A stretch of DNA of 63,641 nucleotides. Source: a virus. Lineage: Duplodnaviria; Caudoviricetes. Position 1 is the stretch's first letter; every line of letters begins with the position of its first letter. A program made the position numbers and the translations under genes. The notes under the pieces were generated by a model. That model did not search any database and had not been told where the DNA came from. It saw nothing but the letters and a program-made list of their open reading frames with translations. The stretch spans positions 1 to 63,641 of IMG/VR virus record IMGVR_UViG_3300032311_000461; one strand, given 5' to 3'. Below, one piece after another: positions 7,210 to 48,910 of this stretch.

Positions 7210-8897
7210 TACGCAACCTTTGCTTTGAGTTCTGCAATGTCAGCCTGTGCTTGCGTGAGTGCCGCCCGCAATGCCGTCAACTCGTCCACTAGGGTCAACT
7301 CATCAGCCACGAACTTTGGAGCGAAGTTGCCGTCAACGTAGTCCTTGCGGGTCAGGTGGCTGGCTGCCGTAGGGGCCGCAGCGGTGGACTCCACATTCGC
7401 GGAAACAGACACAACGCCAGAGACATTGGCTACGGTCGGGCCAACTGAGCCAAACCGAATGGCTGTACCAGTTGCCCTCACTTCCAGCATCACTACTGCC
7501 GCGACACTGGTAGTGGTCACAAGCAGCAAGTTGGAGTTGACATTTCTGACCGCCCAGCCACCGCTGGAGCCAAAGATGTTGTATGTGCTTGCCCAAGTCA
7601 TCGTGTTGACTGCGGTCGGGGCCACGATGGTTCCCGTCATAGTCCCGCCGGTAGTCTTCAGGAAGGCAGTGCTTCCTGAGACAGCCCCATCAACGTACTT
7701 CTTGTTGGTGAGGTCGTTATCATCGGCGGGAGTGAAGGGGGTTTGTGGGTTTGCGCCCAGAAACTGAACCTGTGCCGTGTCTGGTGCGGCTATAAAAGCC
7801 TGCTTGCCACCCGGCATATACAGCCGGTAATAGGAACCGTCGTAGTATGTATAAACGTCGGTTCCGTTGAACCCGGCGGGGCTGGCGTTTGGCGCGTACC
7901 TTAGGGGGCCGTTCATGACATCCCCTGCCTTGTTGACATAGTTGCCTGCAAGGGAAGCCGTGCAAACTCCATTGGCATCAATTGCCAAGCCATTGCCAAT
8001 CTTGATGCCACCCAGAATTGCAGCACTGGCCTTAGGCAAAATATAGTCACTACCAGCACTTGCACTGATGGTGCCGTCAGCCGTAACCGTGATTCCACTA
8101 CCGATCTTCACGCCACCAAGAACAGTGGCAGTGGCAATAGCGGTAGGGCCAGCGGGTCCGACTTCACCCTGCGGACCAGCGGGGCCAGTGACAGAATCAC
8201 CCTTGGGGCCAGCAACCCCGGGCTCGCCCTGAATGCCTTGAATGCCTTGGGGACCCGCCACGCCCTGTGGGCCTTGCACTGGGCCAGAGTCTTGCCATGC
8301 AGCCTTGGTATCATCCCAAACAAATCCCCTAGCTGGCTCGGGGGTCGAGACAACATAGAGATCGCCCTGAGTGGCAGAAGCTGGAAGGTCGCCTTGGGTA
8401 GCGACCGTGCCCATGTACTTAATGCCAAGGCCCGGTTGACCTTGAATGCCTTGAGGACCCTGAATGCCTTCTGTGCCTTGAATGCCCTGCTCGCCCTGAG
8501 GGCCAGCTTCACCAGCCACGCCGGGAACACCCTGAGGGCCAGCGGGACCAGCTACACCGGCCTCACCCTTCACGCCGGGTATCCCCTGCGGAATCTTGAA
8601 TGACAGGGATGCCTTGTTCTCGTTGCCGACATTGATCACTTCGGCTGGCAGTCCACCTTCAATCGTGATCGTTTCGGCTACTTCGATTGTGGCAGCAAGG
8701 CCCGGTTCGCCTTGAGGGCCGGGTTCACCTTCACCCGGGGAGCCGGGAGGGGCAGTGCCGTTGGGCTGAATCCACAAGTCACCGACAGCCGCCGGGTCGG
8801 TTGGCATGGTGTCAGACACAATGTGTGCGGAGTCAGAGCCGCCACCTGTGGAGATGGGCTCCCAACTTGTTCCTGACCAGTAGTACATTGCGGCCAT
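7209..8897 (-). CDS. Collagen-like tail fibre protein
   Basis: Long G-X-Y runs, ATxxxLGGVKIG repeats, LTNKKYVD / LTRKDYVD motifs, C-terminal coiled coil. Confidence 0.85.
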   Translation of the reverse strand: MAAMYYWSGTSWEPISTGGGSDSAHIVSDTMPTDPAAVGDLWIQPNGTAPPGSPGEGEPGPQGEPGLAATIEVAETITIEGGLPAEVINVGNENKASLSFKIPQGIPGVKGEAGVAGPAGPQGVPGVAGEAGPQGEQGIQGTEGIQGPQGIQGQPGLGIKYMGTVATQGDLPASATQGDLYVVSTPEPARGFVWDDTKAAWQDSGPVQGPQGVAGPQGIQGIQGEPGVAGPKGDSVTGPAGPQGEVGPAGPTAIATATVLGGVKIGSGITVTADGTISASAGSDYILPKASAAILGGIKIGNGLAIDANGVCTASLAGNYVNKAGDVMNGPLRYAPNASPAGFNGTDVYTYYDGSYYRLYMPGGKQAFIAAPDTAQVQFLGANPQTPFTPADDNDLTNKKYVDGAVSGSTAFLKTTGGTMTGTIVAPTAVNTMTWASTYNIFGSSGGWAVRNVNSNLLLVTTTSVAAVVMLEVRATGTAIRFGSVGPTVANVSGVVSVSANVESTAAAPTAASHLTRKDYVDGNFAPKFVADELTLVDELTALRAALTQAQADIAELKAKVA

Positions 8898-26385: not shown

Positions 26386-27129
26386 ATGCAGATAATGCGG
26401 TTTCAGGCTGAGTTAGTAGACATTGCCACACGGGGGACACAACCAATGAGGCTGCACGAAATCGGCGCGATATATGACCCGAAACATGAGGAAGCTCTGG
26501 CCAAGCTGAACTGGAACATCCGCAGTGGATATGCCGGGGCAAGCAAGCCCAACCCCGAAACCGGAAAAACGATGTATGCAGGAGCCATGCACCGCATCGT
26601 CTGGGAGCTTGAGTACGGCAGCCCAGCCCCAAAGCTGATCGACCACATAAACCGCAATCGGCTAGACAACCGGGTGTGCAACCTGCGGGCCGGAACACCA
26701 ATCCTGAACGCAGCCAACAACAGCGGGCAGCCAAGCCAACGGAAGTACGGGAACCCGCAGGGCTGTTACTTCGACAAGCGGTCGAGAACATTCAATGCCG
26801 CCATCACGCACAACGGCAAGGCAATCCCTCTCGGCTCCTTTGATACGCCAGAGGAAGCTCACGCCGCATACCTCAAGGCACAAGAATCGGTTCTGAAGCA
26901 CCTGACCACAGGGGAGCCGCTGGCCATCAGGGACACGACAGCAAGGCGGCAAGAAGTGCTGGCGTTACTGCAAGAGCTTGCCGCCAACAGGGCGACCCGA
27001 TCTGAGATTTGCAGAAAGGCTGACATCTCCCGGGTAACGCTTCGCAAGTACGAGAGGCTTCTGGGGCTGGAAATCACGCAGGCAAAGCGTGGAAGACCGT
27101 CAAAACGTGAAAGAAAACTGTCAGCGTAA
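26386..27129 (+). CDS. HNH endonuclease with AP2-like and C-terminal HTH domains
   Basis: MHRIV...IDHINRNRLDNRVCNLR; LGSFDTPEEAHAAY; TRSEICRKADISRVTL. Confidence 0.85.
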   Translation: MQIMRFQAELVDIATRGTQPMRLHEIGAIYDPKHEEALAKLNWNIRSGYAGASKPNPETGKTMYAGAMHRIVWELEYGSPAPKLIDHINRNRLDNRVCNLRAGTPILNAANNSGQPSQRKYGNPQGCYFDKRSRTFNAAITHNGKAIPLGSFDTPEEAHAAYLKAQESVLKHLTTGEPLAIRDTTARRQEVLALLQELAANRATRSEICRKADISRVTLRKYERLLGLEITQAKRGRPSKRERKLSA

Positions 27130-29346: not shown

Positions 29347-29676
29347 ATGGCATGGTCGATTTCGATTACAGCCGAAGGCTGGGCTGACATCCGCAAGGAA
29401 CTGGAAACGTGGGACCGGCAGCGGATTATCGACGCACTGGCTGACGATGCGTTTGAAGCTGCGGAGCAGGCCAACGGCGACGATGGCAAGGGCTACGAGG
29501 AAACCGTGTCGCCCGACGATGCGGCGGATGCCTGCCGTGCCAGTCTGGAATCGGCGGCGGATGACACGCTGGTTGACGCTGCGATGGACTGCATTGAGCG
29601 CAACAACACTTGCGACAACGGCGGCTTCCGGTACTGGATCGACCGGGAGGGGTATCACGGGGTAACGCTCGACTGA
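29347..29676 (+). CDS. Acidic early hypothetical protein
   Basis: MAWSISITAEGW, 109 aa. Confidence 0.75.
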   Translation: MAWSISITAEGWADIRKELETWDRQRIIDALADDAFEAAEQANGDDGKGYEETVSPDDAADACRASLESAADDTLVDAAMDCIERNNTCDNGGFRYWIDREGYHGVTLD

Positions 29677-36947: not shown

Positions 36948-37184
36948 ATGACCAGCACCACGGTAGCCTTGACTGAGCGGCAGGAGGAAATCCTGCGGTT
37001 CATTGCCATGCACATCGACATCAATGGGTTCCAGCCCAGCTTCAGAGAGATGATGGATCGGTTCAAGATCAGGAGCCCCAACGGAATCACTGCCCACCTC
37101 AGGGCACTGGAGAAGAAGGGGGTCATCGCGTCCAACTACCAAACCTCACGGGCAATCAGCTTTGCATGGAAGGAGTGGCTTTGA
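36948..37184 (+). CDS. LexA-type winged-HTH DNA-binding domain only (no peptidase domain)
   Basis: LTERQEEILRFI...GFQPSFREM...SPNGITAHLRALEKKGVI...SRAI. Confidence 0.88.
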   Translation: MTSTTVALTERQEEILRFIAMHIDINGFQPSFREMMDRFKIRSPNGITAHLRALEKKGVIASNYQTSRAISFAWKEWL

Positions 37185-38020
37185 TGAAGGCATACATCTA
37201 CACCCGTGTCTCAACCACGGATCAGAACCTGAGCCCAGAGTGGCAAGGCAACGTGTGCAAGAGCTACTACGAGGCCAGCCTGAAACACAGGGGCTACGAG
37301 TTTGGTGGTATGCTCCACGATCACGGTGAGTCGGCATACAAGATCGACTGGCGTGACCGCACTGCGGGCCGGGAGTTGTTCAACGCTGCCAAGCCCGGTG
37401 ACATCATCATCGTGGCGAAGATGTGCCGTGCCTTCCGGTCTACCCGGGACAGGGAAAACTGCCTCCATTTCCTAGGGCAGGTGGGCATCGACATTGCCAT
37501 CCTCGACTGTGCGATGGACACCACCACGGCAGCCGGGAAGTTCGCGGCTGGGATCATTGCGCTTCAGGTTCAGTGGGAGTCAGACGTTAAGAGTGAGCGG
37601 GCACGGGCTGCCCACTCTGTGCGTAAGGCCCGCCATAACCCAATGAAGAAACGCCCACCGGCTGGGTGGAAGTGGGACCGGGCGATTGATGAACTGGTCC
37701 CAGACTGGGACGAGCGGCGATTGCTGGCCATGATCTATGACCTGAGGGATCGCGGCATCCAGCACATAGCTGGCTCTGCCCGCACCCTCAAGGACAACGG
37801 GGTCAAGCGTGACTGCGGCTACGGCTACAACAAGGCGTGGCTGTGCCGTGCATACGGAGCCTTCCTGAGGAACTTCCCCCGGGAAGGGTTCGTCAAGTCA
37901 CGCGGCAACACCAAGGTGGCAGTCAAGGCTGGGCGTATCAAGGCATCCCTGCCCCGGGCTGAACGCGAAAGGATACTGCGGTCTTCCGAAGTCTCTCCAG
38001 CTTTGCGGCCATCAACTTAG
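37184..38020 (+). CDS. Serine recombinase (resolvase/invertase family)
   Basis: YIYTRVSTTDQ catalytic Ser, DHGESA, RAFRS, DTTTAAGK, WESDVKSER. Confidence 0.9.
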   Translation: MKAYIYTRVSTTDQNLSPEWQGNVCKSYYEASLKHRGYEFGGMLHDHGESAYKIDWRDRTAGRELFNAAKPGDIIIVAKMCRAFRSTRDRENCLHFLGQVGIDIAILDCAMDTTTAAGKFAAGIIALQVQWESDVKSERARAAHSVRKARHNPMKKRPPAGWKWDRAIDELVPDWDERRLLAMIYDLRDRGIQHIAGSARTLKDNGVKRDCGYGYNKAWLCRAYGAFLRNFPREGFVKSRGNTKVAVKAGRIKASLPRAERERILRSSEVSPALRPST

Positions 38021-38495
38021 CCACCTGCCGGGTGCTGATCCCTCTGTCCCGTGCCATCTGCCGGATGCTGGTGCCTTCTATGACATGATCCGTGATCCAC
38101 TGCCGGTCCTCGGGAGGCATGGCATGGAGGGCAACCAGCATCTCGGCAGTGTGGCCGTCATCACTCTCTAGGTCCCGGGCTGGAATCTTTCTCTCTATGA
38201 CTTCCAGCGTTACCCGGTAGGCGACCATCCCTCCCAGCCCGCCATTGGATCGCAACTCTGTCCTGCAACTCTTGAGCAACTCATGCAGGATCGCCCGGGA
38301 GAAGTACCCCCTCAACTCCCGGGACGGGTCATACGTCCTCGCCGCCAACACACAGGCGAAGCGGGCGGCACTCTCTAGCTCTTCCCTGTCCACCACTTCT
38401 CTCAGGCATGGATAGGACCCAAGGAAATAATGCAGGCACGGAGTGATTAACTCCAGAGCCTGCTCTGCGTAACCCTGCTGGTCTTGTGTGAGCAT
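37938..38495 (-). CDS. Sigma-70 family sigma factor (regions 2 and 4)
   Basis: EELESAA...AARTYDPSR..LRGYFSRAI; SIRQMARDRGISTRQV HTH. Confidence 0.75.
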   Translation of the reverse strand: MLTQDQQGYAEQALELITPCLHYFLGSYPCLREVVDREELESAARFACVLAARTYDPSRELRGYFSRAILHELLKSCRTELRSNGGLGGMVAYRVTLEVIERKIPARDLESDDGHTAEMLVALHAMPPEDRQWITDHVIEGTSIRQMARDRGISTRQVAKLMAAKLERLRKTAVSFRVQPGAGMP

Positions 38496-40205: not shown

Positions 40206-40640
40206 TCACTCCCCCTTCTCTATGTAAGGTGCTCGGGATGTCAGGAGTCGAGCATTCTTCACCCGCTCCTCCGTCACCCACGCTGGCAATGGCTTGGGGT
40301 CTTCCTTGAGTCCTGCCCTCCGTAGCAGCTTGGCCAGAAACTCAAGGTCAAACATCTCTTCCCCGTCCTCCTCCAGCTTGGCCTGCAACATATGCCCAAG
40401 AGTGAGCGGCCTCTGGCTGTGCCCTTGGTGGTAGTCCTCATGGCAGCGGGCACAGACACAAATCAGATTCCGGTGATCGTGAGCGTCGAGCCCGCCGCGC
40501 CGCCCAACGAGGTGGTGAAGCTGGGCCTCCCTGCGATAAGCCTTCAGATGACGAGGGAAGTAGCACACGGCACACCTCTCAGACATGAAGGCATAGGCTT
40601 CAAGCTGGCGGCGGATGCGTTCCGATTTCTTTGAAGGCAT
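40206..40640 (-). CDS. HNH-type nuclease
   Basis: CAVC...LHHL...RNLICVCARCH. Confidence 0.75.
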   Translation of the reverse strand: MPSKKSERIRRQLEAYAFMSERCAVCYFPRHLKAYRREAQLHHLVGRRGGLDAHDHRNLICVCARCHEDYHQGHSQRPLTLGHMLQAKLEEDGEEMFDLEFLAKLLRRAGLKEDPKPLPAWVTEERVKNARLLTSRAPYIEKGE

Positions 40641-40702: not shown

Positions 40703-41059
40703 CTAGAAAGCGTCATCGAAGGCGGCGGCGGCGGATGGTGCTGCATCGCGGGGCTGCCACTTCACCCAGCCATTGCCACTGAGGAAGGAACCATCCTTGC
40801 CCTTACGTCTGGGGTAGAGCTTGTTGCCCACTCTGGTCTGACCAAACGAGAGGGTTGCGTTGCAGGAGTTGCAGCGCATTTCGTGATAGGAATTTCCATC
40901 ACGCTCTCTCACGGTGGGCATGGTGTCTGGGCTTTGGCAGGCACCGCACACAGTCTGGGAAAACACTTCGATGGACTGTGCCAACTCCACGAAACATTCC
41001 TTGACATCACTGCCCTCGACTTCAATCTCCATACGATCCGTTTTGTGCTTCACTCGCAT
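40703..41059 (-). CDS. Zinc-ribbon protein with SSB-like acidic tail
   Basis: CGAC...CNSC, ends AFDDAF. Confidence 0.7.
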   Translation of the reverse strand: MRVKHKTDRMEIEVEGSDVKECFVELAQSIEVFSQTVCGACQSPDTMPTVRERDGNSYHEMRCNSCNATLSFGQTRVGNKLYPRRKGKDGSFLSGNGWVKWQPRDAAPSAAAAFDDAF

Positions 41060-41562
41060 TGACCTGCCTCCTTAGGAAACTCACTGGGTACAATGACAGG
41101 CTGCCCACCACCCCAGTAAATGGATGGACCTGTGTAAGTATAACTATTGGTATCAAACGGGCACTCGTCCGCATCACCATCAGCACGATCAAACTCAAGC
41201 CGCAGTCTCTGGTACTCGCAGCCCTCTTTGTAATCACCTGAATGATTGCGAGTCTGTGTTTCTTTCTTTGGTTTCGGTGGGGGAGAAGACTTCTTTGGGG
41301 AAGGCAGGGTGGCGTATCTTCTGGCCATCTCTGCCTTCGCCCATCCCCAGTTCATCTTTTCCACAGCCCACTCTAGGTAATCCAATGGCAGGTCTTTGAT
41401 GGCCCTGCCTGCCCACTTACCATTTCTCATCACATAATCAGGGTCGCCAAACCGCACCGGCTGGGCACCAACAACTGGCGCGACCACTGCCGACCGCTCA
41501 CTATCACTGGCGTGGCTAGACTGCCATCCCCGCCATCGTGTACTAACCCTGTGCTTGCTCAT
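41050..41562 (-). CDS. Hypothetical protein with DUF3820-like motif
   Basis: MRNGKWAGRAIKDLPLDYLEW. Confidence 0.65.
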   Translation of the reverse strand: MSKHRVSTRWRGWQSSHASDSERSAVVAPVVGAQPVRFGDPDYVMRNGKWAGRAIKDLPLDYLEWAVEKMNWGWAKAEMARRYATLPSPKKSSPPPKPKKETQTRNHSGDYKEGCEYQRLRLEFDRADGDADECPFDTNSYTYTGPSIYWGGGQPVIVPSEFPKEAGQCE

Positions 41563-41738
41563 CGAACTTCCTTTCTCAATGGTGTTCTTCCGAATCACAC
41601 ACCGCATCGTCGCATCTAACCCGCCTACACCGGGGGCAATGGCACCTAAAAAATAGGACCTAAAGCCCATTGCAAAACGACCTCATTGCCCCTGTGCAAG
41701 CGAGACTAAGCTGCCTGCATTTCCTTACTGCGACCTCA

Positions 41739-42189
41739 GTCCTCCCGTAGACGAGAGAGTTGGGTGTCACCTTTACGCGAACTGCATGGTGGAAGCAGCG
41801 GTTCAGCTACCACCTCGGGCACCTTTCGGCTGTTGCCTACTCCCGGCCCTTCGTCTGTCGCCTTGTGAACATCGTCACGCCCGTCTGTCTTACCTCTGGG
41901 TTAGACCCTGTGGAGGATAGGCCCCTACATCGAACGGTTCAGGGCTTTAATCGTCCCTCATAGTCTGACAGCCACTCTCGGCTGACAGCTTGTTGCTTCT
42001 GTCTCAGGTGCCCGGCCTCTCCCTTTTCGTTAGGAGTTGCGGTAGGTGCGACCCGGGAAAGCTAGAGCCGAAGGTAACACTGAAGTTACTTCCTCAGATT
42101 GCAGTCGCTGCCGGTCGGCCTTGCCTTACTCCATCCGTTACCACGGCTGCCCAACTCCACGGCGGGTGATCGGGTCAGTGCGAGAGGAC
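41739..42189 (-). ncRNA. Candidate large structured ncRNA
   Basis: No convincing ORF; at least five nested long-range helices whose wobble pairs are G-U only on the minus strand. Confidence 0.6.
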
Positions 42190-42254
42190 GGGCACCCAAG
42201 ACAAAAGCGTTTGTGTTCTCCTTGCTATTGCTGATTGTGTCGTTGTGACCAGCG

Positions 42255-42782
42255 TTACCCTGCCCGTGATTTTTGGTCAAGGGTTAGGTCAACAGATTTC
42301 TCGTACCGTTTTGTTTTTGTTCCGGTCATGTCGATGTATGCGTTGCAGCGGTTGGCCACACCACCGTTGATGGTTGCTTGGGTGTTGGTGTTGGCGATTC
42401 GCATGGGCACAACAAACTCCCCATCTTCCGCCAGCTTGCGAACGAGTAGCACCTGCGAAGGGACCAGATAGAGGAAGCCAACCAGAGGGATGCACAAGCC
42501 GTGGGCCAACTGCTTGGCTTTCTCCAGCTTGGAGAACGTCACCAGCCACTCACCCGCGAAGTCCTCAAAGAACACGCTCTCCTCAACGATGCGGCACTTG
42601 GTTTCAACCAGAGCCGCTATGCCATTGCCGTTGATCAGGATGCCGTCTACGGGGCAGGGGGAGTCCTTGTCGGTGGGAGCGTATGCCCACCCCGGATTGA
42701 ACCCCTGCCACAGCGCAACGGCATCATGCTCTTGGCGAAGGGACTCCTGACCACGGGGAGTGTTGATGTCGAGGCTCACCAT
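42255..42782 (-). CDS. PD-(D/E)XK nuclease-like protein
   Basis: PVDGIL...LVETKCR. Confidence 0.7.
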   Translation of the reverse strand: MVSLDINTPRGQESLRQEHDAVALWQGFNPGWAYAPTDKDSPCPVDGILINGNGIAALVETKCRIVEESVFFEDFAGEWLVTFSKLEKAKQLAHGLCIPLVGFLYLVPSQVLLVRKLAEDGEFVVPMRIANTNTQATINGGVANRCNAYIDMTGTKTKRYEKSVDLTLDQKSRAG

Positions 42783-44353
42783 TGGCCCACCCCCCGCTCT
42801 TCAAGGGCCTTCATCCGCCGGTCCACTTCCTGCTTGAAGGCGACCGTCCACATGGCGTTCAACTTGGCATCCCTGAGGGCCCACTGGAGCCACGACAATG
42901 GGATGGCAGGGTCCCGTAGGGGGCGACGTTTCCACTTGCCAAAGGGAACGTAGTAGCCCTTGATCTTGGGGGTCTTAACGTCCGGCCTGTCGAACAGGTC
43001 CCGGGACCGGGAGTCGAACGTGACCCCGACCACACAGGACTTCCTCCGCTCCCGCTCGGCCTCCCGCTCCAGCCGCTCCATCTCCTTGAGGGCATCAAGC
43101 TCGGCCTGAAGGGCAGCGTCGAGTTCATCCAGCGTGACTTCCTCGTCAGCGTTGTCCTGCTTGATTTTGTCGATGATTTCCTTGGGGCCAGCCAGCAACA
43201 TATCTATGGCAGTGACCGGGGAGTGGAACCGGCTGGTGTTCGTGATGTCATGGAAATCCCATGTGGGCTTGGCACTGGCAGCGATGGCAGCGATCCTCTC
43301 CTCTGCCGTGTTCAGCCCATCCAGAGTCCCGGTCAGTGCCCGTGTGCCCCGGCCCAGTCCTTGGAGGAACGTGCCCTTATGCTTGGTGGGGGCCGCATTA
43401 AAAATCTCGTTGACCATTGGGCAATCCCAACCCCTCCCCAAGACACGGCAGTTGGTGATGAGCGTGTTCTCCCCGCTCTCAAACTTCTTGATCTCAAGGT
43501 CCCGCTCCTCCGGTGGTTGCTCACCCCACACGCACGACACCTTCAATCCATAGCGGTCGGTCAGCATCTCCCTGATGGCCTTGGCTTGGGGCACAGACCG
43601 GCAGCGGATCACCCCGTGGGACTTCTTGTGGTGCTGCACAACAAGCTGGCAGATGTCATTCCTGACTGCCTCGGACATGAGGATGCCGTCGATCTCATGG
43701 GGCAGGAAGTCAACCTTGGTCTTGGACAGTTCATCGAAGTTGATGGACCGCACCGTGTGGACAGTCACCCTTGGCTTGACCAGCCAGCCCTGTGAGAAAG
43801 CCTCGCTCAACTCCATGCTGTAGGGGCATGAGGTATAGAAGCCGAACAGCGGGCTCCGCTTGTCGGCGCGTTGGGGAGTCGCGGTTACTCCCAGCACCCG
43901 TGCCCCGGCAGCAATGAACTCCTGCATCATCTCCCTGAATTTCACAGAGAAATGGATGTCAGCCTCGTCAATGATGATCAGGTCAACGTGCCCCACGAAA
44001 CGCTTGTAGCGACCGTCACTCTTGAGGGTCTGGTGGGTGGCGACGATCCACTCATCACCCGGGTCAGCCTTGAGCATGGCCTGCTCGACACTGGCAACCC
44101 GGCCCCGGAGCCTGCGGATGGTGGCCACGGTCTGCTTATTCACATTGTCTTGACCCGACACCACCATCACCCGTGCCCCTTCGCGGGGCAGGGCGACGAA
44201 CGTGGTGGTTTTGCCGACACCCGTAGGCAGGACGAGAAGGACCGCTTGGTTCCCCTCCCGAAATGCCTGCCGGATGGCGACGATGGCTTCCTTCTGGTAG
44301 GGGCGAAGAACTTCAGTGTCGAACAGGGGCAGGAAGACTTGTCCTTTCCTCAT
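42776..44353 (-). CDS. Superfamily 2 DEAD/DEAH-box helicase
   Basis: LRPYQ, LPTGVGKT, IIIDEAD, TATP, GWDCP, QGLGRGTR; C-terminal DUF3820-like PFGKW. Confidence 0.93.
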   Translation of the reverse strand: MRKGQVFLPLFDTEVLRPYQKEAIVAIRQAFREGNQAVLLVLPTGVGKTTTFVALPREGARVMVVSGQDNVNKQTVATIRRLRGRVASVEQAMLKADPGDEWIVATHQTLKSDGRYKRFVGHVDLIIIDEADIHFSVKFREMMQEFIAAGARVLGVTATPQRADKRSPLFGFYTSCPYSMELSEAFSQGWLVKPRVTVHTVRSINFDELSKTKVDFLPHEIDGILMSEAVRNDICQLVVQHHKKSHGVIRCRSVPQAKAIREMLTDRYGLKVSCVWGEQPPEERDLEIKKFESGENTLITNCRVLGRGWDCPMVNEIFNAAPTKHKGTFLQGLGRGTRALTGTLDGLNTAEERIAAIAASAKPTWDFHDITNTSRFHSPVTAIDMLLAGPKEIIDKIKQDNADEEVTLDELDAALQAELDALKEMERLEREAERERRKSCVVGVTFDSRSRDLFDRPDVKTPKIKGYYVPFGKWKRRPLRDPAIPLSWLQWALRDAKLNAMWTVAFKQEVDRRMKALEERGVGQW

Positions 44354-44841
44354 GCTATGTGCCTCCAGCATTTCCCAGTTGCAATGCGGCTGATGGCTGA
44401 CTGACGAACTCCGTACACTTTGGCAATCGAAAGCTGTGGAAAACCAAGTTCGATAGCCCTGCGAATACAGCGAACGTCTTCAGCACTCAGCTTGCAGACC
44501 CCATCACGCCCCTTGTTGTGCATATCCTTTACGTTGTCCTTCGCCGTGCCAGCAAAAAGGTGCAGGTGGTTGCAGCAAACCGGGTTGTCACAGTGGTGGC
44601 AGACGTAAAGCCCATCTGGAACTGTGCCGTAGTGATGCTCGTAGGCAACCCTGTGGGTGCTGTACAGCTTCGCGTTGCCTTCGTATCGGCTCCCAACGCG
44701 AATGTTGCCGTACCCGTCCCCGCTGCAACCACCTGTCCACTCAAGGCACGGTGATCCATCCCATGCGTTGATGATGCTGGTCACGCACTTCCGCATGACT
44801 CGCTCGTAAGCTGGGATTGGAGTTGGCCCCTTCTTCCTCAT
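44350..44841 (-). CDS. HNH endonuclease with C-terminal HTH
   Basis: CLEWTG..GYG..THRVAY..VCHHCDNPVCCNHLHLF.GT..DN..DM..KGR. Confidence 0.9.
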   Translation of the reverse strand: MRKKGPTPIPAYERVMRKCVTSIINAWDGSPCLEWTGGCSGDGYGNIRVGSRYEGNAKLYSTHRVAYEHHYGTVPDGLYVCHHCDNPVCCNHLHLFAGTAKDNVKDMHNKGRDGVCKLSAEDVRCIRRAIELGFPQLSIAKVYGVRQSAISRIATGKCWRHIA

Positions 44842-45059: not shown

Positions 45060-45610
45060 TCACCTCCGTGTTTGATTGGCTCAATCCCAAGCACCGCATC
45101 CAACACAGCCGACTTCTTCGATGGGCGACCGCGCCTCTTCTTCACTGCAACATCAGGCTGGCTGCCTGTTGCAGGTCTGTGTCCCTCTTCTGTGCGAACC
45201 TCCCCACCCACCGCTGGCCCCACTCCCGCTCCGACCATTGGGACTGCACGAACTTGATCCTCTCCGTTAGGTCCGGCGGGACCGGACGCATCTTTCCGCT
45301 GCGGGCTGACCGGGTGTACTGCGTGTACTGACTCCGCAGTTCGTGCTGCCTGAGGTGCGGCAGCCGCTTCTTGACTTCCAGAAAAGACAGCCCCTCCGAC
45401 ACCAGTTCCGCCAACAGCAACTCGTCCTCGTCCGTCATGTCCCGGTATCCCACGAAAGAAGTCCTCCGCTTGGTTGTCGAGTGCCCGCTGCATAGTCCTG
45501 AGTTCCGCAAACAGGAGCGGCAGCACCTTCATCAGCACGTTGGGCAAGTCATTGAGGCTGGCCTTGCAGAGGTAACCCTCAAGCTGGTCGATGTCGCTCT
45601 GACTAAGCAC
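45056..45610 (-). CDS. Hypothetical protein with disordered middle and KKRRGRPSKK
   Basis: GGAGGAGG SD, coupled to both neighbours. Confidence 0.6.
   Translation of the reverse strand: MLSQSDIDQLEGYLCKASLNDLPNVLMKVLPLLFAELRTMQRALDNQAEDFFRGIPGHDGRGRVAVGGTGVGGAVFSGSQEAAAAPQAARTAESVHAVHPVSPQRKDASGPAGPNGEDQVRAVPMVGAGVGPAVGGEVRTEEGHRPATGSQPDVAVKKRRGRPSKKSAVLDAVLGIEPIKHGGE
45142..45438 (-). CDS. Nested alternative-frame ORF (98 aa)
   Basis: MTDEDELLLAELVSEGLSFLEVKKRL...LTERIKFVQSQWSEREW reads as a globular helical protein. Confidence 0.5.
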   Translation of the reverse strand: MTDEDELLLAELVSEGLSFLEVKKRLPHLRQHELRSQYTQYTRSARSGKMRPVPPDLTERIKFVQSQWSEREWGQRWVGRFAQKRDTDLQQAASLMLQ

Positions 45611-46298
45611 TGGCCACCTCCTCCTCCTTGGGAAGCAGTTGCCCGAACTGGCGGCGCAGCTTGGTGATCTCGTCAGCCGTCAGGTCGCCGCTCTCGGCAA
45701 GGCTCTCGGCCTGAGCGAAGACCTTTGCAAGCTCGGCGGGCAGCTTGACCAGCGTCTTGCACTTGGCTTCCACCCTCTTGAACAGGTCGTTCTTGGGTGC
45801 AGGGGCAGGGGCAGGGTCCTTCTCCTTGGCCACCTCGGCGTTGACCTGAGAGTGAGCCTCTTCGGCTTGCTCCAAGTCTTCGGCACCAACGCTCCAGCCA
45901 CCGGCAAGCTGGAGGAACAACTGCTTCTTCGTGTAGGTGGACGCAGCCTCAAGGGACTGGTTGTCCTCACGCCTGTTACCATTTTTGTCGATCATGTCCC
46001 GCATCGGGAGAAGGCAGGACACCCACTCGCCCGTGTTGTGAACAAGCCTGCCGACCATGACCAACTCGGAGCCCATGTACCCAGTCTGGAACAGCGGCAT
46101 GGGGAAGCCATGCTTGTTCAAGGCAGGGAGCAAGGCCACGCAGATGTCGCCCAGAGTTGAATAGTCAAACTTGCCGTACTCGTTGCGGCCCGTCTTCCTG
46201 ATCGGCTTGTACTCCATCTGTGCCTTTGCCAACGCAGTTACTAACTGCTTGGTTTCCGGGGAAGAAGTTACGCCGCGAATGTAGTTGTCGATCTCCAT
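45603..46298 (-). CDS. ERF-family single-strand annealing protein
   Basis: ALAKAQ..PI.K...N...FDYSTL...LVHNTGEW...QSLEAASTY. Confidence 0.85.
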   Translation of the reverse strand: MEIDNYIRGVTSSPETKQLVTALAKAQMEYKPIRKTGRNEYGKFDYSTLGDICVALLPALNKHGFPMPLFQTGYMGSELVMVGRLVHNTGEWVSCLLPMRDMIDKNGNRREDNQSLEAASTYTKKQLFLQLAGGWSVGAEDLEQAEEAHSQVNAEVAKEKDPAPAPAPKNDLFKRVEAKCKTLVKLPAELAKVFAQAESLAESGDLTADEITKLRRQFGQLLPKEEEVASA

Positions 46299-46315: not shown

Positions 46316-47188
46316 CTATTCGACTGTGAAGAAAGACCGATCCCCAAACCCGGGCATAGTCAATTCGTTGACTTTGCCGTAACCGTCCTCAAGCCAATCA
46401 CCCGTCGCACGGCGACGGGCAATGTCGGTGAGCAGTTCGTCAAGCCGCCGCCTCGCCCAGTCCATGTAGACCGGGGGCAACGTGACCACCTGCGTGAGAT
46501 AGGGATGCACCGTCTGAGTGACGATGAAGTGCATGGGTGGCTCGGCCAACCCGCTGACCACTGCCCCCTGTTCGTAGAGGGCGGCACTGATTCCGTACCC
46601 GTAAGCCCTTACGGATCGGGACCAGTCCTTGAGAATGTTCTTCTCGCTGGTGGTCTTGTAGTCGCCTAACTGTCCGTTGTTGCCAACGAAGTCAGGGCGG
46701 CAGCGGACCATCACCCCAGCCGTGGACTCCCAGCGGATGCTGGCTTCCCGATGGAGGATGTCCTCTTCAAGCTCGACTGCCTTGGGGTTCAGGCCAAAGC
46801 GGTCCTGCATCTTCCCAAGAATTTCCCCCATCTCGGGGGACAGGATGATGGCATCCGGGGACAGGGTGGCCAGCCAGTCCTTGGTTGCCTTTTTTGTTGA
46901 CAACCCCCTAGATGCGGTACAATGTTCTTCAGGGGCAGTGACCGCCCGCTCCGAGAACTGGTCGTAACCAATCTCTCGGAGTGTATGCCAAACTCTTCCT
47001 AGCTGGAGGGCTGCCGACTTGGAGTCGGACATCCACCCCATCTCCACCGCGTCATGGAAGACGGTGGCTGACTCTGCCAGTCTGATCTGGGTAGAGCCGA
47101 CATGAGCCAGATCACTGTGATAGGTAGTGATCGGCTCGTCGTAGAGAACTGAAAAGCGGGCGACACCATGGACAGAGGGCTCGGTCAT
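46316..47188 (-). CDS. RecE/exonuclease VIII-like PD-(D/E)XK nuclease (DUF3799-like)
   Basis: YH...GR.WH...RCRPD...DYKTT...YGY..SAALY. Confidence 0.85.
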   Translation of the reverse strand: MTEPSVHGVARFSVLYDEPITTYHSDLAHVGSTQIRLAESATVFHDAVEMGWMSDSKSAALQLGRVWHTLREIGYDQFSERAVTAPEEHCTASRGLSTKKATKDWLATLSPDAIILSPEMGEILGKMQDRFGLNPKAVELEEDILHREASIRWESTAGVMVRCRPDFVGNNGQLGDYKTTSEKNILKDWSRSVRAYGYGISAALYEQGAVVSGLAEPPMHFIVTQTVHPYLTQVVTLPPVYMDWARRRLDELLTDIARRRATGDWLEDGYGKVNELTMPGFGDRSFFTVE

Positions 47189-48088: not shown

Positions 48089-48910
48089 ATGCCTCTGACT
48101 GCTGTTGTGGATGAGTACGTTGATAGCCGTGACCTGTGTCACAATTATCGACGGCACCTAATGCGAACCGCTGAGATGCTTGAAGCATCGGGCATAACCT
48201 CCGTGGCCGACTTGACTCCTCAACGGGTCACCCGTTGGCTCGACTCTCTTGCGGTCAGTAAGACCACGAAGTCGAACTACCGTCGCCAAGCCCTCACGAT
48301 TATTCGTGCTGCGCTCGGTCCCCGTTGTGCAGATTTTATCGAAGGAGTCAGGCGTGTCAAGCACTCGGTTCCGCCGCCGGTTGCGTGGACGAGAGAAGAG
48401 TTGTCGAGGTTGCTGCACGTTGCCCGCCACCTCCCCGGCAAGCTGCAATGCGGATGCCCGGTCCACGTTTTCTTCACAGCTTGGGTGCTTGCAGGGTACT
48501 CCTGTGGGCTGCGGTTCAGTGACCTGTTGAACCTGAGGTGCAGTCAGATCAGGGATGGGCGGCTCTATACGATCCAGCACAAGACGGGGGACTCCTTGGT
48601 TCAGGTGCTGCCCCACGAATGCGTGGATGCCCTCAACGAACTGATGGAGCTATCCCCGGACGGCAGGGTCTTCCGCTGGGCCCTGTCGGAGAAGTGGCTG
48701 CGGATCAGGTGGGACCGCATGGTGGCGGCAGCGAAGCTCACAGGCACCTGCAAGTGGATGCGGCGCACGGGGGCCACTTGGGTTGAGGCTACCCAGCCCG
48801 GGAGTTCCAGCCGATTCCTTGGGCATCGGAGCCCTGAACTGGCCATGAAGCATTATGTGGACCGGACGCTCCTGCCCAACTCCTGCCCCATGCCCCCGCC
48901 CATCCGTTAA
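48089..48910 (+). CDS. int: Tyrosine recombinase / integrase
   Basis: GLRFSDL, KTG, KWMRRT (HxxR position), LGH, HY; GGGGAG SD. Confidence 0.9.
   Translation: MPLTAVVDEYVDSRDLCHNYRRHLMRTAEMLEASGITSVADLTPQRVTRWLDSLAVSKTTKSNYRRQALTIIRAALGPRCADFIEGVRRVKHSVPPPVAWTREELSRLLHVARHLPGKLQCGCPVHVFFTAWVLAGYSCGLRFSDLLNLRCSQIRDGRLYTIQHKTGDSLVQVLPHECVDALNELMELSPDGRVFRWALSEKWLRIRWDRMVAAAKLTGTCKWMRRTGATWVEATQPGSSSRFLGHRSPELAMKHYVDRTLLPNSCPMPPPIR

What the first reader, a model, noticed from the sequence alone, without database searches (positions are those of the whole stretch)
41739..42189. Candidate ~450-nt large structured ncRNA in the replication module
Seen on the minus strand, nested helices: GTCCTCTCG(42189-42181)/CGGGAGGAC(41747-41739); GAGTTGGG(42157-42150)/CCCAACTC(41764-41757); GCGACTGCA(42108-42100)/TGCAGTTCGC(41786-41777); GGAAGTAACTTCAGTGTTACCTTCGG(42093-42068)/CCGAGGTGGTAGCTGAACCGCTGCTTCC(41818-41791); GCACCT(42011-42006)/AGGTGC(41824-41819). 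There are local GNRA-type hairpins such as GCC-GAAA-GGT. Wobbles are G-U only on this strand, and no credible ORF is present in an otherwise tightly packed operon. RNase P, tmRNA and intron signatures are not recognisable by eye. No primase or DNA polymerase is recognisable in the genome, so a replication-primer/origin RNA is one hypothesis.
Basis: partly seen in the sequence, partly recalled or inferred. Interest (0 to 1): 0.8.

Follow-up and report, generated by a model that had tools for sequence, protein, structure and literature searches.

The report
Swappable structured RNA cassette in phage
A roughly 690-base stretch with no gene in a lake phage's replication module looks like a large folded RNA of no known family, and related phages carry unrelated folded RNAs at exactly the same spot, so this seems to be a new, interchangeable RNA locus whose job is still unknown.

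Summary
The stretch is real and non-coding, but larger than reported: minus strand 42250-41563, between a conserved ~50-nt element (42299-42248) and the ATG at 41562. All six frames carry 5-13 stops. Rfam and ARAGORN find nothing.

The block is 97-100% identical in one related phage whose flanks drop to 33-65%. It recurs in lake metagenomes.

Folding signal is modest: z -1.84 sense, -0.41 antisense. One 20-bp uninterrupted helix (42208-42189/42014-41995) was matched by 0 of 100 shuffles and carries a compensatory U-A to G-C change.

All 17 related phage contigs hold a non-coding cassette at this position, in seven sequence-unrelated types. Type T4 has 10 compensatory pairs against 2.6 in shuffles. 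Type T5 has 5.

My verdict is a new class of large structured phage RNA at a fixed, hypervariable locus. Expression and function are unproven. A cis-acting role in the replication operon is my leading guess.

The parts
42248..42299 (-). Conserved ~50-nt 5' boundary element (TTGACC-N6-TTGACC ... GGCAGGGTAACGCT). It is promoter- or operator-like. It overlaps the last codons and the TAA stop of the upstream 175-aa ORF.
   Evidence: It is the only sequence shared by all cassette types W, T3, T4 and T12. It was found in 3 IMG/VR contigs and 4 metagenome contigs. The consensus scan does not call it a sigma-70 promoter. A C>A change in L091 is uncompensated, which argues against a hairpin role.
41563..42250 (-). 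The 'W' cassette: a non-coding stretch of about 690 nt, the candidate structured RNA.
   Evidence: All frames carry stops. It is 97-100% identical to L005, whereas sequence just outside is 33-65% identical. z is -1.84 sense and -0.41 antisense. There are no Rfam hits.
42182..42208 (-). 5' arm of the long helix: 20 uninterrupted bp at 42208-42189, then 6 more after a bulge.
   Evidence: Inverted repeat I1, 27 nt, 85% complementary. 0 of 100 shuffles reach 20 bp. The 42194 U>G change is compensated.
41995..42021 (-). 3' arm of the long helix. The helix encloses a 160-nt domain at 42181-42022.
   Evidence: 42009 A>C in L005 restores pairing with 42194. The same letter is seen in lake contigs from runs X6, X7 and X18.
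41821..41830 (-). GCC-GAAA-GGU hairpin with a GNRA-type tetraloop.
   Evidence: Sequence. It is predicted as a hairpin in the folds.
41590..41735 (-). Long irregular 3' hairpin. It is invariant between the window and L005. Its outer arms are GGUCGCA/UGCGAC. Coordinates are approximate.
   Evidence: MFE folds. There are no substitutions between the window and L005 from 41786 to 41546. One change was seen, at 41738, in run X2.
41646..41668 (-). Weak terminator-like hairpin (5 pairs) followed by a U6 tract, about 90 nt before the downstream start codon.
   Evidence: It is the only minus-strand terminator-like site inside the replication operon, but the count is at chance level (1 found, 1.7 expected).
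41678..41758 (-). Two imperfect direct repeats, each ending in UGAGGUCG, with 53-nt spacing.
   Evidence: Family D1, 28 nt, 71% identity. UGAGGUCG is at 41738 and 41685. A two-copy family may be chance.
41050..41562 (-). Downstream gene, with likely true start ATG at 41562 and a GAAAGGAAG ribosome-binding site at 41575-41567. It has a hypervariable N-terminal part and a conserved C-terminal part.
   Evidence: Weak PF12843 match (E 6e-4). 41546-41332 is replaced by other sequence in run X2.
40703..41059 (-). 118-aa four-cysteine zinc-ribbon protein. It is the conserved downstream anchor of the locus in all relatives.
   Evidence: Alignment A3. 17 loci found. No family assigned.
42776..44371 (-). 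SF2 helicase, the conserved upstream anchor of the locus.
   Evidence: Pfam ResIII/DEAD/Helicase_C. phrog_16. Relatives.

Best explanation
What it is (about 0.75 likely). Minus-strand 42250-41563 is a genuine non-coding element that works as a folded RNA read in the direction of the surrounding genes. It is one allele ('W') of at least seven sequence-unrelated cassettes, partly built from shuffled modules. Every related phage carries one of them at the same place, between the SF2 helicase and a zinc-ribbon gene of the replication/recombination module.

How it works (inferred, about 0.4). The RNA is made as part of the replication-operon transcript. The transcript starts either at the conserved element just upstream or at the strong sigma-70-like promoter at 48360-48333. 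The RNA folds into autonomous domains and acts in cis on that transcript. The 20-27-bp helix is long enough to be an RNase III processing site. The invariant 3' hairpin with an embedded hairpin-plus-U6 could gate read-through into the downstream genes.

Shown: non-coding status, conservation, one significant helix, covariation in sister cassettes, and fixed position. Inferred: transcription, processing, and any regulatory effect.
For: Non-coding.

Conservation: the block is 97-100% identical to L005 while the adjacent sequence is 33-65% identical and the helicase is 82.5%. The same block, with the same boundaries at 42264/42251 and 41546, sits in contigs from lake metagenome runs with different flanks.

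Substitution pattern: the fold was predicted from the window sequence alone, and the 15 differences in L005 were then mapped onto it. One is a compensatory pair, 2 are wobble-compatible, 7 are unpaired and 3 break pairs. In 20,000 permutations, P(broken<=3) = 0.013, P(compensatory>=1) = 0.042, and the joint P = 0.0014.

Helix: the 20-bp helix is reached by 0 of 100 shuffles.

Strand: z is -1.84 sense and -0.41 antisense. Alifold gives -246 sense and -216 antisense. Three single transitions give G-U only on this strand, against one the other way.

Sister cassettes: T4 has 145 pairs, 10 of them compensatory, against 2.6 +/- 1.4 in shuffles (0 of 500 reach 10) and 0 in all six slid controls. T5 has 109 pairs, 5 compensatory. 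The module shared by T5 and T7 shows compensatory stems.

Fixed position: 17 of 17 related contigs have a cassette there.

Context: every cassette is followed within about 20-100 nt by a ribosome-binding site and a gene on the same strand.
Against: No expression data: no RNA run holds the stretch.

The thermodynamic signal of W itself is weak, and 2 of 60 shuffles fold as well.

Only two full W sequences were available, so W has a single compensatory pair. Three pairs of the window-only MFE are broken by L005 changes. Of the 6 variant positions seen in run X2, 3 break predicted pairs. The central and 3' parts of the model are therefore unreliable.

The near-identity of the block could reflect recent recombination rather than selection. 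Three HNH endonuclease genes lie in the genome.

For T3, T4 and T12, the antisense strand folds as well as or better than the sense strand by z-score.

The same T4 cassette precedes different first genes in L004 and L091. Unrelated cassettes also replace one another. Both facts fit poorly with a gene-specific cis-regulator.

The terminator-like site is at chance level.
Confidence: 0.4

Rival explanations
1. Trans-acting ornate RNA. The cassette is cut out of the operon transcript, for example at the long helix. It then works as a free, stable RNA or ribonucleoprotein, either as a decoy or binder of a host factor or as a structural RNA like GOLLD, ROOL or phi29 pRNA. Its hypervariability would reflect conflict with the host or with competing phages.
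For: Size and complexity are far above usual leaders: T4 has 20 helices and W has about 200 predicted pairs. Closing helices join the 5' and 3' ends in T4, T7a and T7b. Types are swapped among phages whose helicases are 88-98% identical. Modules are shuffled, for example L012 = T4 5' part + T3 5' part + new sequence. Variable nuclease-like ORFs and a hypervariable N-terminus sit next to the cassette.
Against: No clear own terminator. No complementarity to the rest of the phage genome above shuffled controls. No known family. The cassette is always present rather than patchy, which is unusual for accessory counter-defence loci.
Confidence: 0.25
2. Origin or primer RNA. Transcription through the cassette gives a folded RNA that forms a persistent hybrid with the template and primes, or opens, the phage origin for host enzymes. 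This would resemble ColE1 RNA II or the R-loop origins of T4 (both recalled).
For: A non-coding element is always present at a fixed position inside the replication module. No primase or polymerase family was found in 42 ORFs scanned. Its length of 350-690 nt is similar to RNA II (recalled). Folding under selection is expected for a pre-primer. The RNA strand is G>C and A>U. The closest cultured helicase relatives are Streptococcus phages, whose replication modules are recalled to carry a non-coding origin.
Against: No AT-rich unwinding element, iterons or tandem repeats. Composition is no different from neighbouring genes. No promoter-like site on either strand of 41000-43000, so no sign of an antisense regulator. 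Phages with nearly identical helicases carry unrelated cassettes. Large ORFs of unknown function could still hide a polymerase or primase.
Confidence: 0.2
3. A DNA-level element without RNA function: operator or regulatory DNA, a recombination hotspot, or a single-strand DNA structure. Pairing would be kept at the DNA level.
For: The conserved 5' element and, in other types, a palindrome ATGTCAA-N11-TTGACAT look like protein-binding DNA. Antisense strands of T3, T4 and T12 fold as well as or better than the sense strands. Block boundaries coincide with assembly break points.
Against: 350-690 nt is far more than operators need. G-U-dependent helices and the energy asymmetry favour one strand read as RNA in W, T5 and T12. 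Wobble-preserving transitions favour the sense strand.
Confidence: 0.1
4. A non-functional spacer or decayed gene remnants left by recombination in a plastic region.
For: The region is mosaic and flanked by variable ORFs and homing-type HNH genes.
Against: 17 of 17 relatives keep a cassette. Within-type conservation exceeds that of the flanking genes: W, and T5 at 86-88% against 74-81%. Compensatory changes are present. Phage genomes rarely keep 700 nt of junk (established knowledge).
Confidence: 0.05

Closest known systems
GOLLD and ROOL large ornate RNAs of phages and prophages (recalled; families present in Rfam)
   Same: Several hundred nucleotides long, many helices, encoded in phage genomes, function unknown.
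   Different: No cmscan match even at E<=10. Those RNAs are single conserved families. Here, unrelated types replace one another at one locus. No tRNA genes lie nearby.
ColE1 RNA II pre-primer (recalled)
   Same: About 550-nt folded transcript in a replicon that relies on host polymerases. Sequence diverges between related replicons while the fold matters.
   Different: No antisense promoter-like site, no defined origin, and no test of RNase H or Pol I dependence. This is a phage, not a plasmid.
Phage P4 immunity leader (CI RNA) and P1/P7 c4 RNA (recalled)
   Same: Non-coding RNA in the leader of a replication or early operon of a temperate element. Alleles differ between relatives and set specificity.
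   Different: Those RNAs are under 100 nt and pair with repeated target sites. No internal complementary targets were found for the repeats here.
phi29 pRNA (recalled)
   Same: Essential phage RNA at a fixed locus whose sequence differs strongly between relatives.
   Different: pRNAs share one secondary structure and sit by the packaging genes. Here lengths (300-690 nt) and modules differ, and the locus is in the replication module.
Non-coding replication origins of Streptococcus thermophilus Sfi21-type phages (recalled)
   Same: A non-coding stretch of a few hundred bp within a helicase-containing replication module. The helicase here is most similar (about 31%) to those of Streptococcus phages.
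   Different: Those origins are recalled to be AT-rich with direct and inverted repeats. W has genome-average composition and no repeat arrays.

Membership tests
Any Rfam 15 family (including GOLLD, ROOL, HEARO, OLE, group I/II introns, RNase P, tmRNA, riboswitches, small ribozymes) | Covariance-model score at or above the family's gathering threshold | tested here: not met
   0 matches at gathering in the whole window. At E<=10 over 41300-42600 there were only two chance-level hits, at E 1.2 and 7.7. No hit fell inside a cassette in the related loci, apart from one chance-level microRNA-model hit on the opposite strand of L091 (E 0.1, far below gathering).
tRNA / tmRNA | ARAGORN-detectable cloverleaf, or tag reading frame with a tRNA-like domain | tested here: not met
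   0 genes in the window and 0 in six related loci.
Protein-coding gene (standard or recoded) | An open frame spanning the stretch, conserved in relatives | tested here: not met
   5-13 stops in each of six frames. No single stop reassignment opens it. The small ORFs have no Pfam match. A natural 1-nt deletion occurs at 41963 in run X7.
Structured RNA (general) | Folds better than dinucleotide shuffles | tested here: inconclusive
   W: z -1.78 (1 of 20) and -1.84 (2 of 60). The 20-bp helix alone is significant (0 of 100). T4: z -4.5 (0 of 100).
Structured RNA (general) | Compensatory base changes in predicted helices | tested here: inconclusive
   W: one compensatory pair from two sequences, permutation P 0.042. 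The feature is met for sister cassettes T4 (10 pairs, 0 of 500 shuffles) and T5 (5 pairs). These are not homologous to W.
Independent sRNA gene | Own promoter and intrinsic terminator | tested here: inconclusive
   The conserved upstream element has a TTGACC but no good -10, and the scan does not call it. The hairpin+U6 at 41668-41646 is weak and at chance level.
ColE1-type primer RNA | Antisense regulator RNA and promoter on the opposite strand; origin at the 3' end; RNase H and Pol I dependence | tested here: inconclusive
   No promoter-like site on either strand of 41000-43000. The biochemical features cannot be tested with these tools.
Iteron-type or AT-rich replication origin | Arrays of direct repeats and an AT-rich unwinding element | tested here: not met
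   One two-copy 28-nt repeat at 71% identity, no tandem repeats. GC 0.56, like the neighbouring genes.
Type III toxin-antitoxin RNA | Tandem repeats of about 36 nt upstream of a terminator and a toxin gene | tested here: not met
   No tandem repeats.

The most novel reading that the evidence does not exclude
The locus is a specificity cassette made of RNA. Each phage lineage carries one of many non-cross-reacting large folded RNAs. The RNA either primes or licenses replication of a polymerase-less phage, or sets RNA-based immunity or incompatibility between co-infecting relatives. Diversifying selection would keep swapping whole RNA alleles at conserved boundary sequences. That would be a phage counterpart of ColE1 RNA I/II incompatibility groups or P4 RNA immunity, built from RNAs five to ten times larger.
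Probability: 0.2. Interest if true: 0.85.

Novelty: new variant of a known kind. Interest (0 to 1): 0.62.

Why it matters
Bacterial and phage RNAs of several hundred nucleotides with complex folds are rare, and each new class has opened new biology.

Here there is not one RNA but a fixed genomic slot. A whole group of freshwater phages fills it with at least seven unrelated folded RNAs, some assembled from shared modules. If the RNAs are expressed, this is a natural library of large RNA folds tied to phage replication.

It would also be a testable case of RNA alleles under swap-type (diversifying) evolution, a pattern so far described mainly for proteins such as repressors and receptor-binding proteins.

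It also gives a concrete candidate for how a phage without recognisable primase or polymerase starts or controls replication.

Tried and rejected
Known RNA families. Rfam at gathering and at permissive E-values on the window and on 16 related loci gave nothing relevant. ARAGORN found nothing.

Known phages. No DNA match for 41000-44400 in the phage collection. Helicase and terminase reach only <=31% and <=27% identity to cultured phages.

Upstream ORF. The 175-aa protein has no relatives in IMG/VR.

Other contexts for W. A W-internal 22-mer occurs only in the same IMG/VR relative and in no GTDB genome contig. No prophage relative of the helicase was found in genome contigs. The host is therefore unknown.

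Expression. No RNA holder was listed among the 22 sequencing runs, so nothing can be said about expression.

Coding. No Pfam match for 5 small ORFs. Stop-codon reassignment was rejected.

Repeats. No tandem repeats or iterons.

Antisense-target idea. The best complementarity or similarity of W to the rest of the genome is 14 nt, within the range of 20 shuffles.

Shared core among cassette types. Only short k-mers are shared. The GGGCAACGGG module belongs to T5 and T7 only, and its covariance model R1 does not hit W, T3, T4, T6 or T12.

5' element pairing. The idea that the 5' conserved element pairs with each cassette's first 70 nt gave z between -1.0 and +1.2, so there is no support.

Repeat targets. 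No complementary copies of the T4 or W repeats were found.

Zinc-ribbon protein. The ESM Atlas gave only viral hypothetical clusters.

Literature. One full-text search listed 20 of 24 papers. I saw titles and the starts of abstracts only, and none described such a locus. No paper was read, and all named analogies are recalled. No paper supplements were consulted.

Full report
Setting. The window is a complete 63,641-bp virus record with direct terminal repeats. It has no close cultured relative: there is no DNA match, the helicase reaches at most 31% identity to Streptococcus phages, and the terminase reaches at most 27% to Arthrobacter phages. The finding lies on the minus strand inside a replication/recombination module. 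That module holds a PDDEXK exonuclease (46316-47188), ERF (45603-46298), HNH (44350-44841), an SF2 helicase (42776-44371) and a 175-aa ORF (42255-42782). The gap follows, then a 206-aa ORF call (41050-41670), a 118-aa zinc-ribbon protein (40703-41059), a second HNH and a MazG-like protein.

Checking the observation. The stretch is non-coding. The longest ORFs are 64-67 aa. Each of the six frames has 5-13 stops, and no single stop reassignment opens it. Five small ORFs give no Pfam match at E<=1. Rfam finds nothing at gathering in the whole window and only two chance-level hits at E<=10. ARAGORN finds no tRNA or tmRNA.

The fold is only modestly better than shuffles on the minus strand: z -1.78 with 1 of 20 shuffles as good, and z -1.84 with 2 of 60 for 42250-41570. 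It is no better than shuffles on the plus strand: z 0.02 and -0.41.

Its dominant feature is a helix of 20 uninterrupted pairs, 42208-42189 with 42014-41995, extended to 27 nt arms. None of 100 dinucleotide shuffles reaches 20 pairs; the maximum was 18 and the commonest value 12.

True extent. The relative L002/L005 (one IMG/VR contig) aligns with 97% column identity from the end of the upstream ORF to just past an ATG at 41562. That ATG is preceded by GAAAGGAAG. In 60-nt windows, identity is 56-60 of 60 from 42265 to 41546, but 33 of 60 and 26 of 60 in the adjacent windows. The helicase is 82.5% identical. The element is therefore about 690 nt (42250-41563), preceded by a conserved ~50-nt element (42299-42248).

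Contigs from four lake or freshwater runs from four studies carry the same block. Assembly breaks or changes of flank fall at 42251/42264 and 41546. In one run, 41546-41332 is replaced by 201 other letters. Twenty of the 22 listed runs, from 17 studies, hold part of the 2-kb query. All are DNA runs.

Evidence for RNA-level constraint in W. I predicted a fold from the window sequence alone and then mapped the 15 differences in L005 onto it. One pair changed on both sides and stayed paired: 42194 U>G with 42009 A>C, inside the 20-bp helix. Two changes are wobble-compatible, 7 fall in unpaired positions, and 3 pairs are broken. In 20,000 random placements, P(<=3 broken) = 0.013, P(>=1 compensatory) = 0.042, and the joint P = 0.0014.

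Of the six variant positions in run X2, two are wobble-compatible, one is unpaired and three break predicted pairs. The model of the central and 3' parts is therefore not reliable.

42009 A>C breaks his H5, 42082 C>G hits a paired base of his H4, and 42188 U>A makes a mismatch in H1.

Strand. Three single transitions keep pairing only if read on the minus strand, against one the other way. The alignment fold is -246 kcal/mol sense against -216 antisense.

The locus in relatives. Two closer relatives by helicase (98% and 88% amino-acid identity) keep only the ~50-nt element and then carry different non-coding sequence. A pattern for that element retrieved 3 IMG/VR and 4 metagenome contigs.

Using the helicase and the zinc-ribbon protein as anchors, I collected 17 IMG/VR contigs with the module. 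All 17 have a non-coding cassette between the anchors. Ten were identified by an ORF gap of at least 250 nt. Six more were identified by BLAST to a cassette type; three of those six had a 147-aa ORF call that 1-nt indels in L012 show is not conserved. One was identified by alignment.

The cassettes fall into seven types with no detectable similarity between types:
- W: about 690 nt.
- T3: about 345 nt.
- T4: about 500 nt.
- T12.
- T5: about 340 nt.
- T6: about 480 nt.
- T7: about 300 nt.

The only similarity between types comes from shared modules. L012 is made of the T4 5' part, the T3 5' part and new sequence. T5 and T7 share a 56-nt module. The covariance model of that module finds no copy in W, T3, T4, T6 or T12. 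No cassette locus matches an Rfam family.

Covariation in sister cassettes. The T4 alignment has four sequences, one of them at 82% identity. Of 145 predicted pairs, 10 changed on both sides, against 2.6 +/- 1.4 in 500 column shuffles (none reached 10) and 0 in each of six slid controls. 95.7% of cells are paired. The caveat is that the structure was derived from the same alignment. T4 also folds far better than shuffles, z -4.5.

T5 has three sequences and 109 pairs, 5 of them compensatory. T5 is more conserved (86-88%) than its flanks (74-81%). By alignment energy the sense strand is favoured in T5 and T12 and tied in T4. By single-sequence z-score the antisense is as good or better in T3, T4 and T12.

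These results show that the slot holds structured RNAs in relatives. They do not prove it for W, which is not homologous to them.

Transcription signals. The 5' element has TTGACC twice and an invariant GGCAGGGTAACGCT, separated by a variable spacer. That looks like a promoter or operator, but the -10 is poor and the scan does not call it. A hairpin reading is weakened by an uncompensated change in L091. Other types are preceded by TTGACA, in three cases within a palindrome ATGTCAA-N11-TTGACAT.

A strong sigma-70-like promoter (11 of 12 matches) lies at 48360-48333 on the same strand, upstream of the module. W may therefore simply be internal to a long operon transcript. The only minus-strand terminator-like site within the operon is the weak hairpin+U6 at 41668-41646 inside W, at chance level. 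T6 has a similar site, while T5 and T12 have none.

What it most likely is and does. I hold with about 0.75 probability that W is a functional folded RNA element. It would be one allele of a positionally fixed, sequence-hypervariable RNA locus. The mechanism is inferred only.

My leading reading (0.4) is a cis-acting domain of the replication-operon transcript. The long helix is an obvious candidate RNase III site. The invariant 3' hairpin with its hairpin+U6 is a candidate gate for read-through into the downstream genes.

Against a gene-specific regulator, the same T4 RNA precedes different genes in two phages, and unrelated RNAs substitute for each other.

The origin idea gains from the constant presence in the replication module. 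It also gains from the absence of any primase or polymerase family in 42 scanned ORFs. It lacks any origin hallmark: no repeats, no AT-rich element, and no antisense promoter-like site. In addition, four large ORFs remain unassigned.

Comparison with known systems. The element is not a member of any Rfam family tested. It resembles GOLLD and ROOL in size and phage residence, ColE1 RNA II in length and context, P4 and P1 immunity RNAs in being an allele-like RNA in a replication leader, and phi29 pRNA in being sequence-variable at a fixed locus. All of these are recalled, not tested. What differs is that one slot holds many unrelated, modular, large RNAs.

I found no description of such a locus. 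That rests on Rfam and on a single literature search in which I saw only the listing.

Limits. There are no expression data, only two full W sequences, an unknown host, and structures that are predictions.

Noticed in passing
window 27031, 29659 (+); 38206, 42251 (-): The 10-mer GGGTAACGCT occurs four times in the genome. The 14-mer GGCAGGGTAACGCT gave 16 matches at <=3 mismatches, against 6.1 expected, and 0 of 100 shuffles reached 16. The site near 29659 also shares TCGACC and ATCACGG upstream. It may be a phage-specific promoter or regulator site. ORF 37938-38495 has a weak sigma-factor PHROG hit (E 0.002).
   Followed up: partly
window 48333-48360 (-): Near-consensus sigma-70-type promoter, TTGACA-16-TAAAAT (11 of 12 matches), upstream of the replication module. 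It is likely the early or replication-operon promoter.
   Followed up: no
window 41332-41546 (-): The N-terminal ~70 codons of the gene after the RNA are hypervariable. Identity to L005 is 43-65%, against 95-100% on either side. In an otherwise near-identical lake contig (run X2), they are replaced by 201 unrelated letters.
   Followed up: partly
window 40703-41059 (-): The 118-aa four-cysteine zinc-ribbon protein is conserved in all relatives. In most it ends in an acidic tail with a terminal Phe (AAFDDAF), reminiscent of the C-terminal tips of single-strand-binding proteins (recalled). No family was assigned by Pfam, PHROGs or the ESM Atlas.
   Followed up: partly
L004 6893 and 7014; L091 2134 and 2256; L102 2840 and 2926: In the T4 cassette, a 12-nt direct repeat (AAGAGCGGACAC) brackets the long GAAA-capped hairpin. 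In the distant relative L102, both copies have changed together to AAGAGGCAGAC, which suggests a shared binding partner. No complementary copy was found.
   Followed up: partly
L094 ~2510-2540; L096 ~280-310; L097 ~75-105: A palindrome ATGTCAA-N11-TTGACAT, operator-like, directly precedes the cassettes of three phages that lack the window's 5' element.
   Followed up: no
window 37166-38020 (+): A serine recombinase (integrase or invertase PHROGs, E 4e-34) suggests a temperate lifestyle. Three HNH endonuclease genes (44350-44841, 40206-40640, 26386-27129) could drive the mosaicism.
   Followed up: no
window 42255-42782 (-); L003 6572-7102; L004 ~7690-8130: The variable small ORFs next to the cassettes show D...E-x-K-like motifs by eye, so they may be nucleases. 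The 175-aa and 176-aa ORFs of the window and L003 share only their last residues, which are encoded by the conserved 5' element.
   Followed up: no
L013 1238-1299; L003 2151-2213: Weak tRNA-model hits (E 0.0037 and 0.39) upstream of the helicase in two relatives. ARAGORN did not call one in L003; L013 was not scanned with ARAGORN.
   Followed up: no
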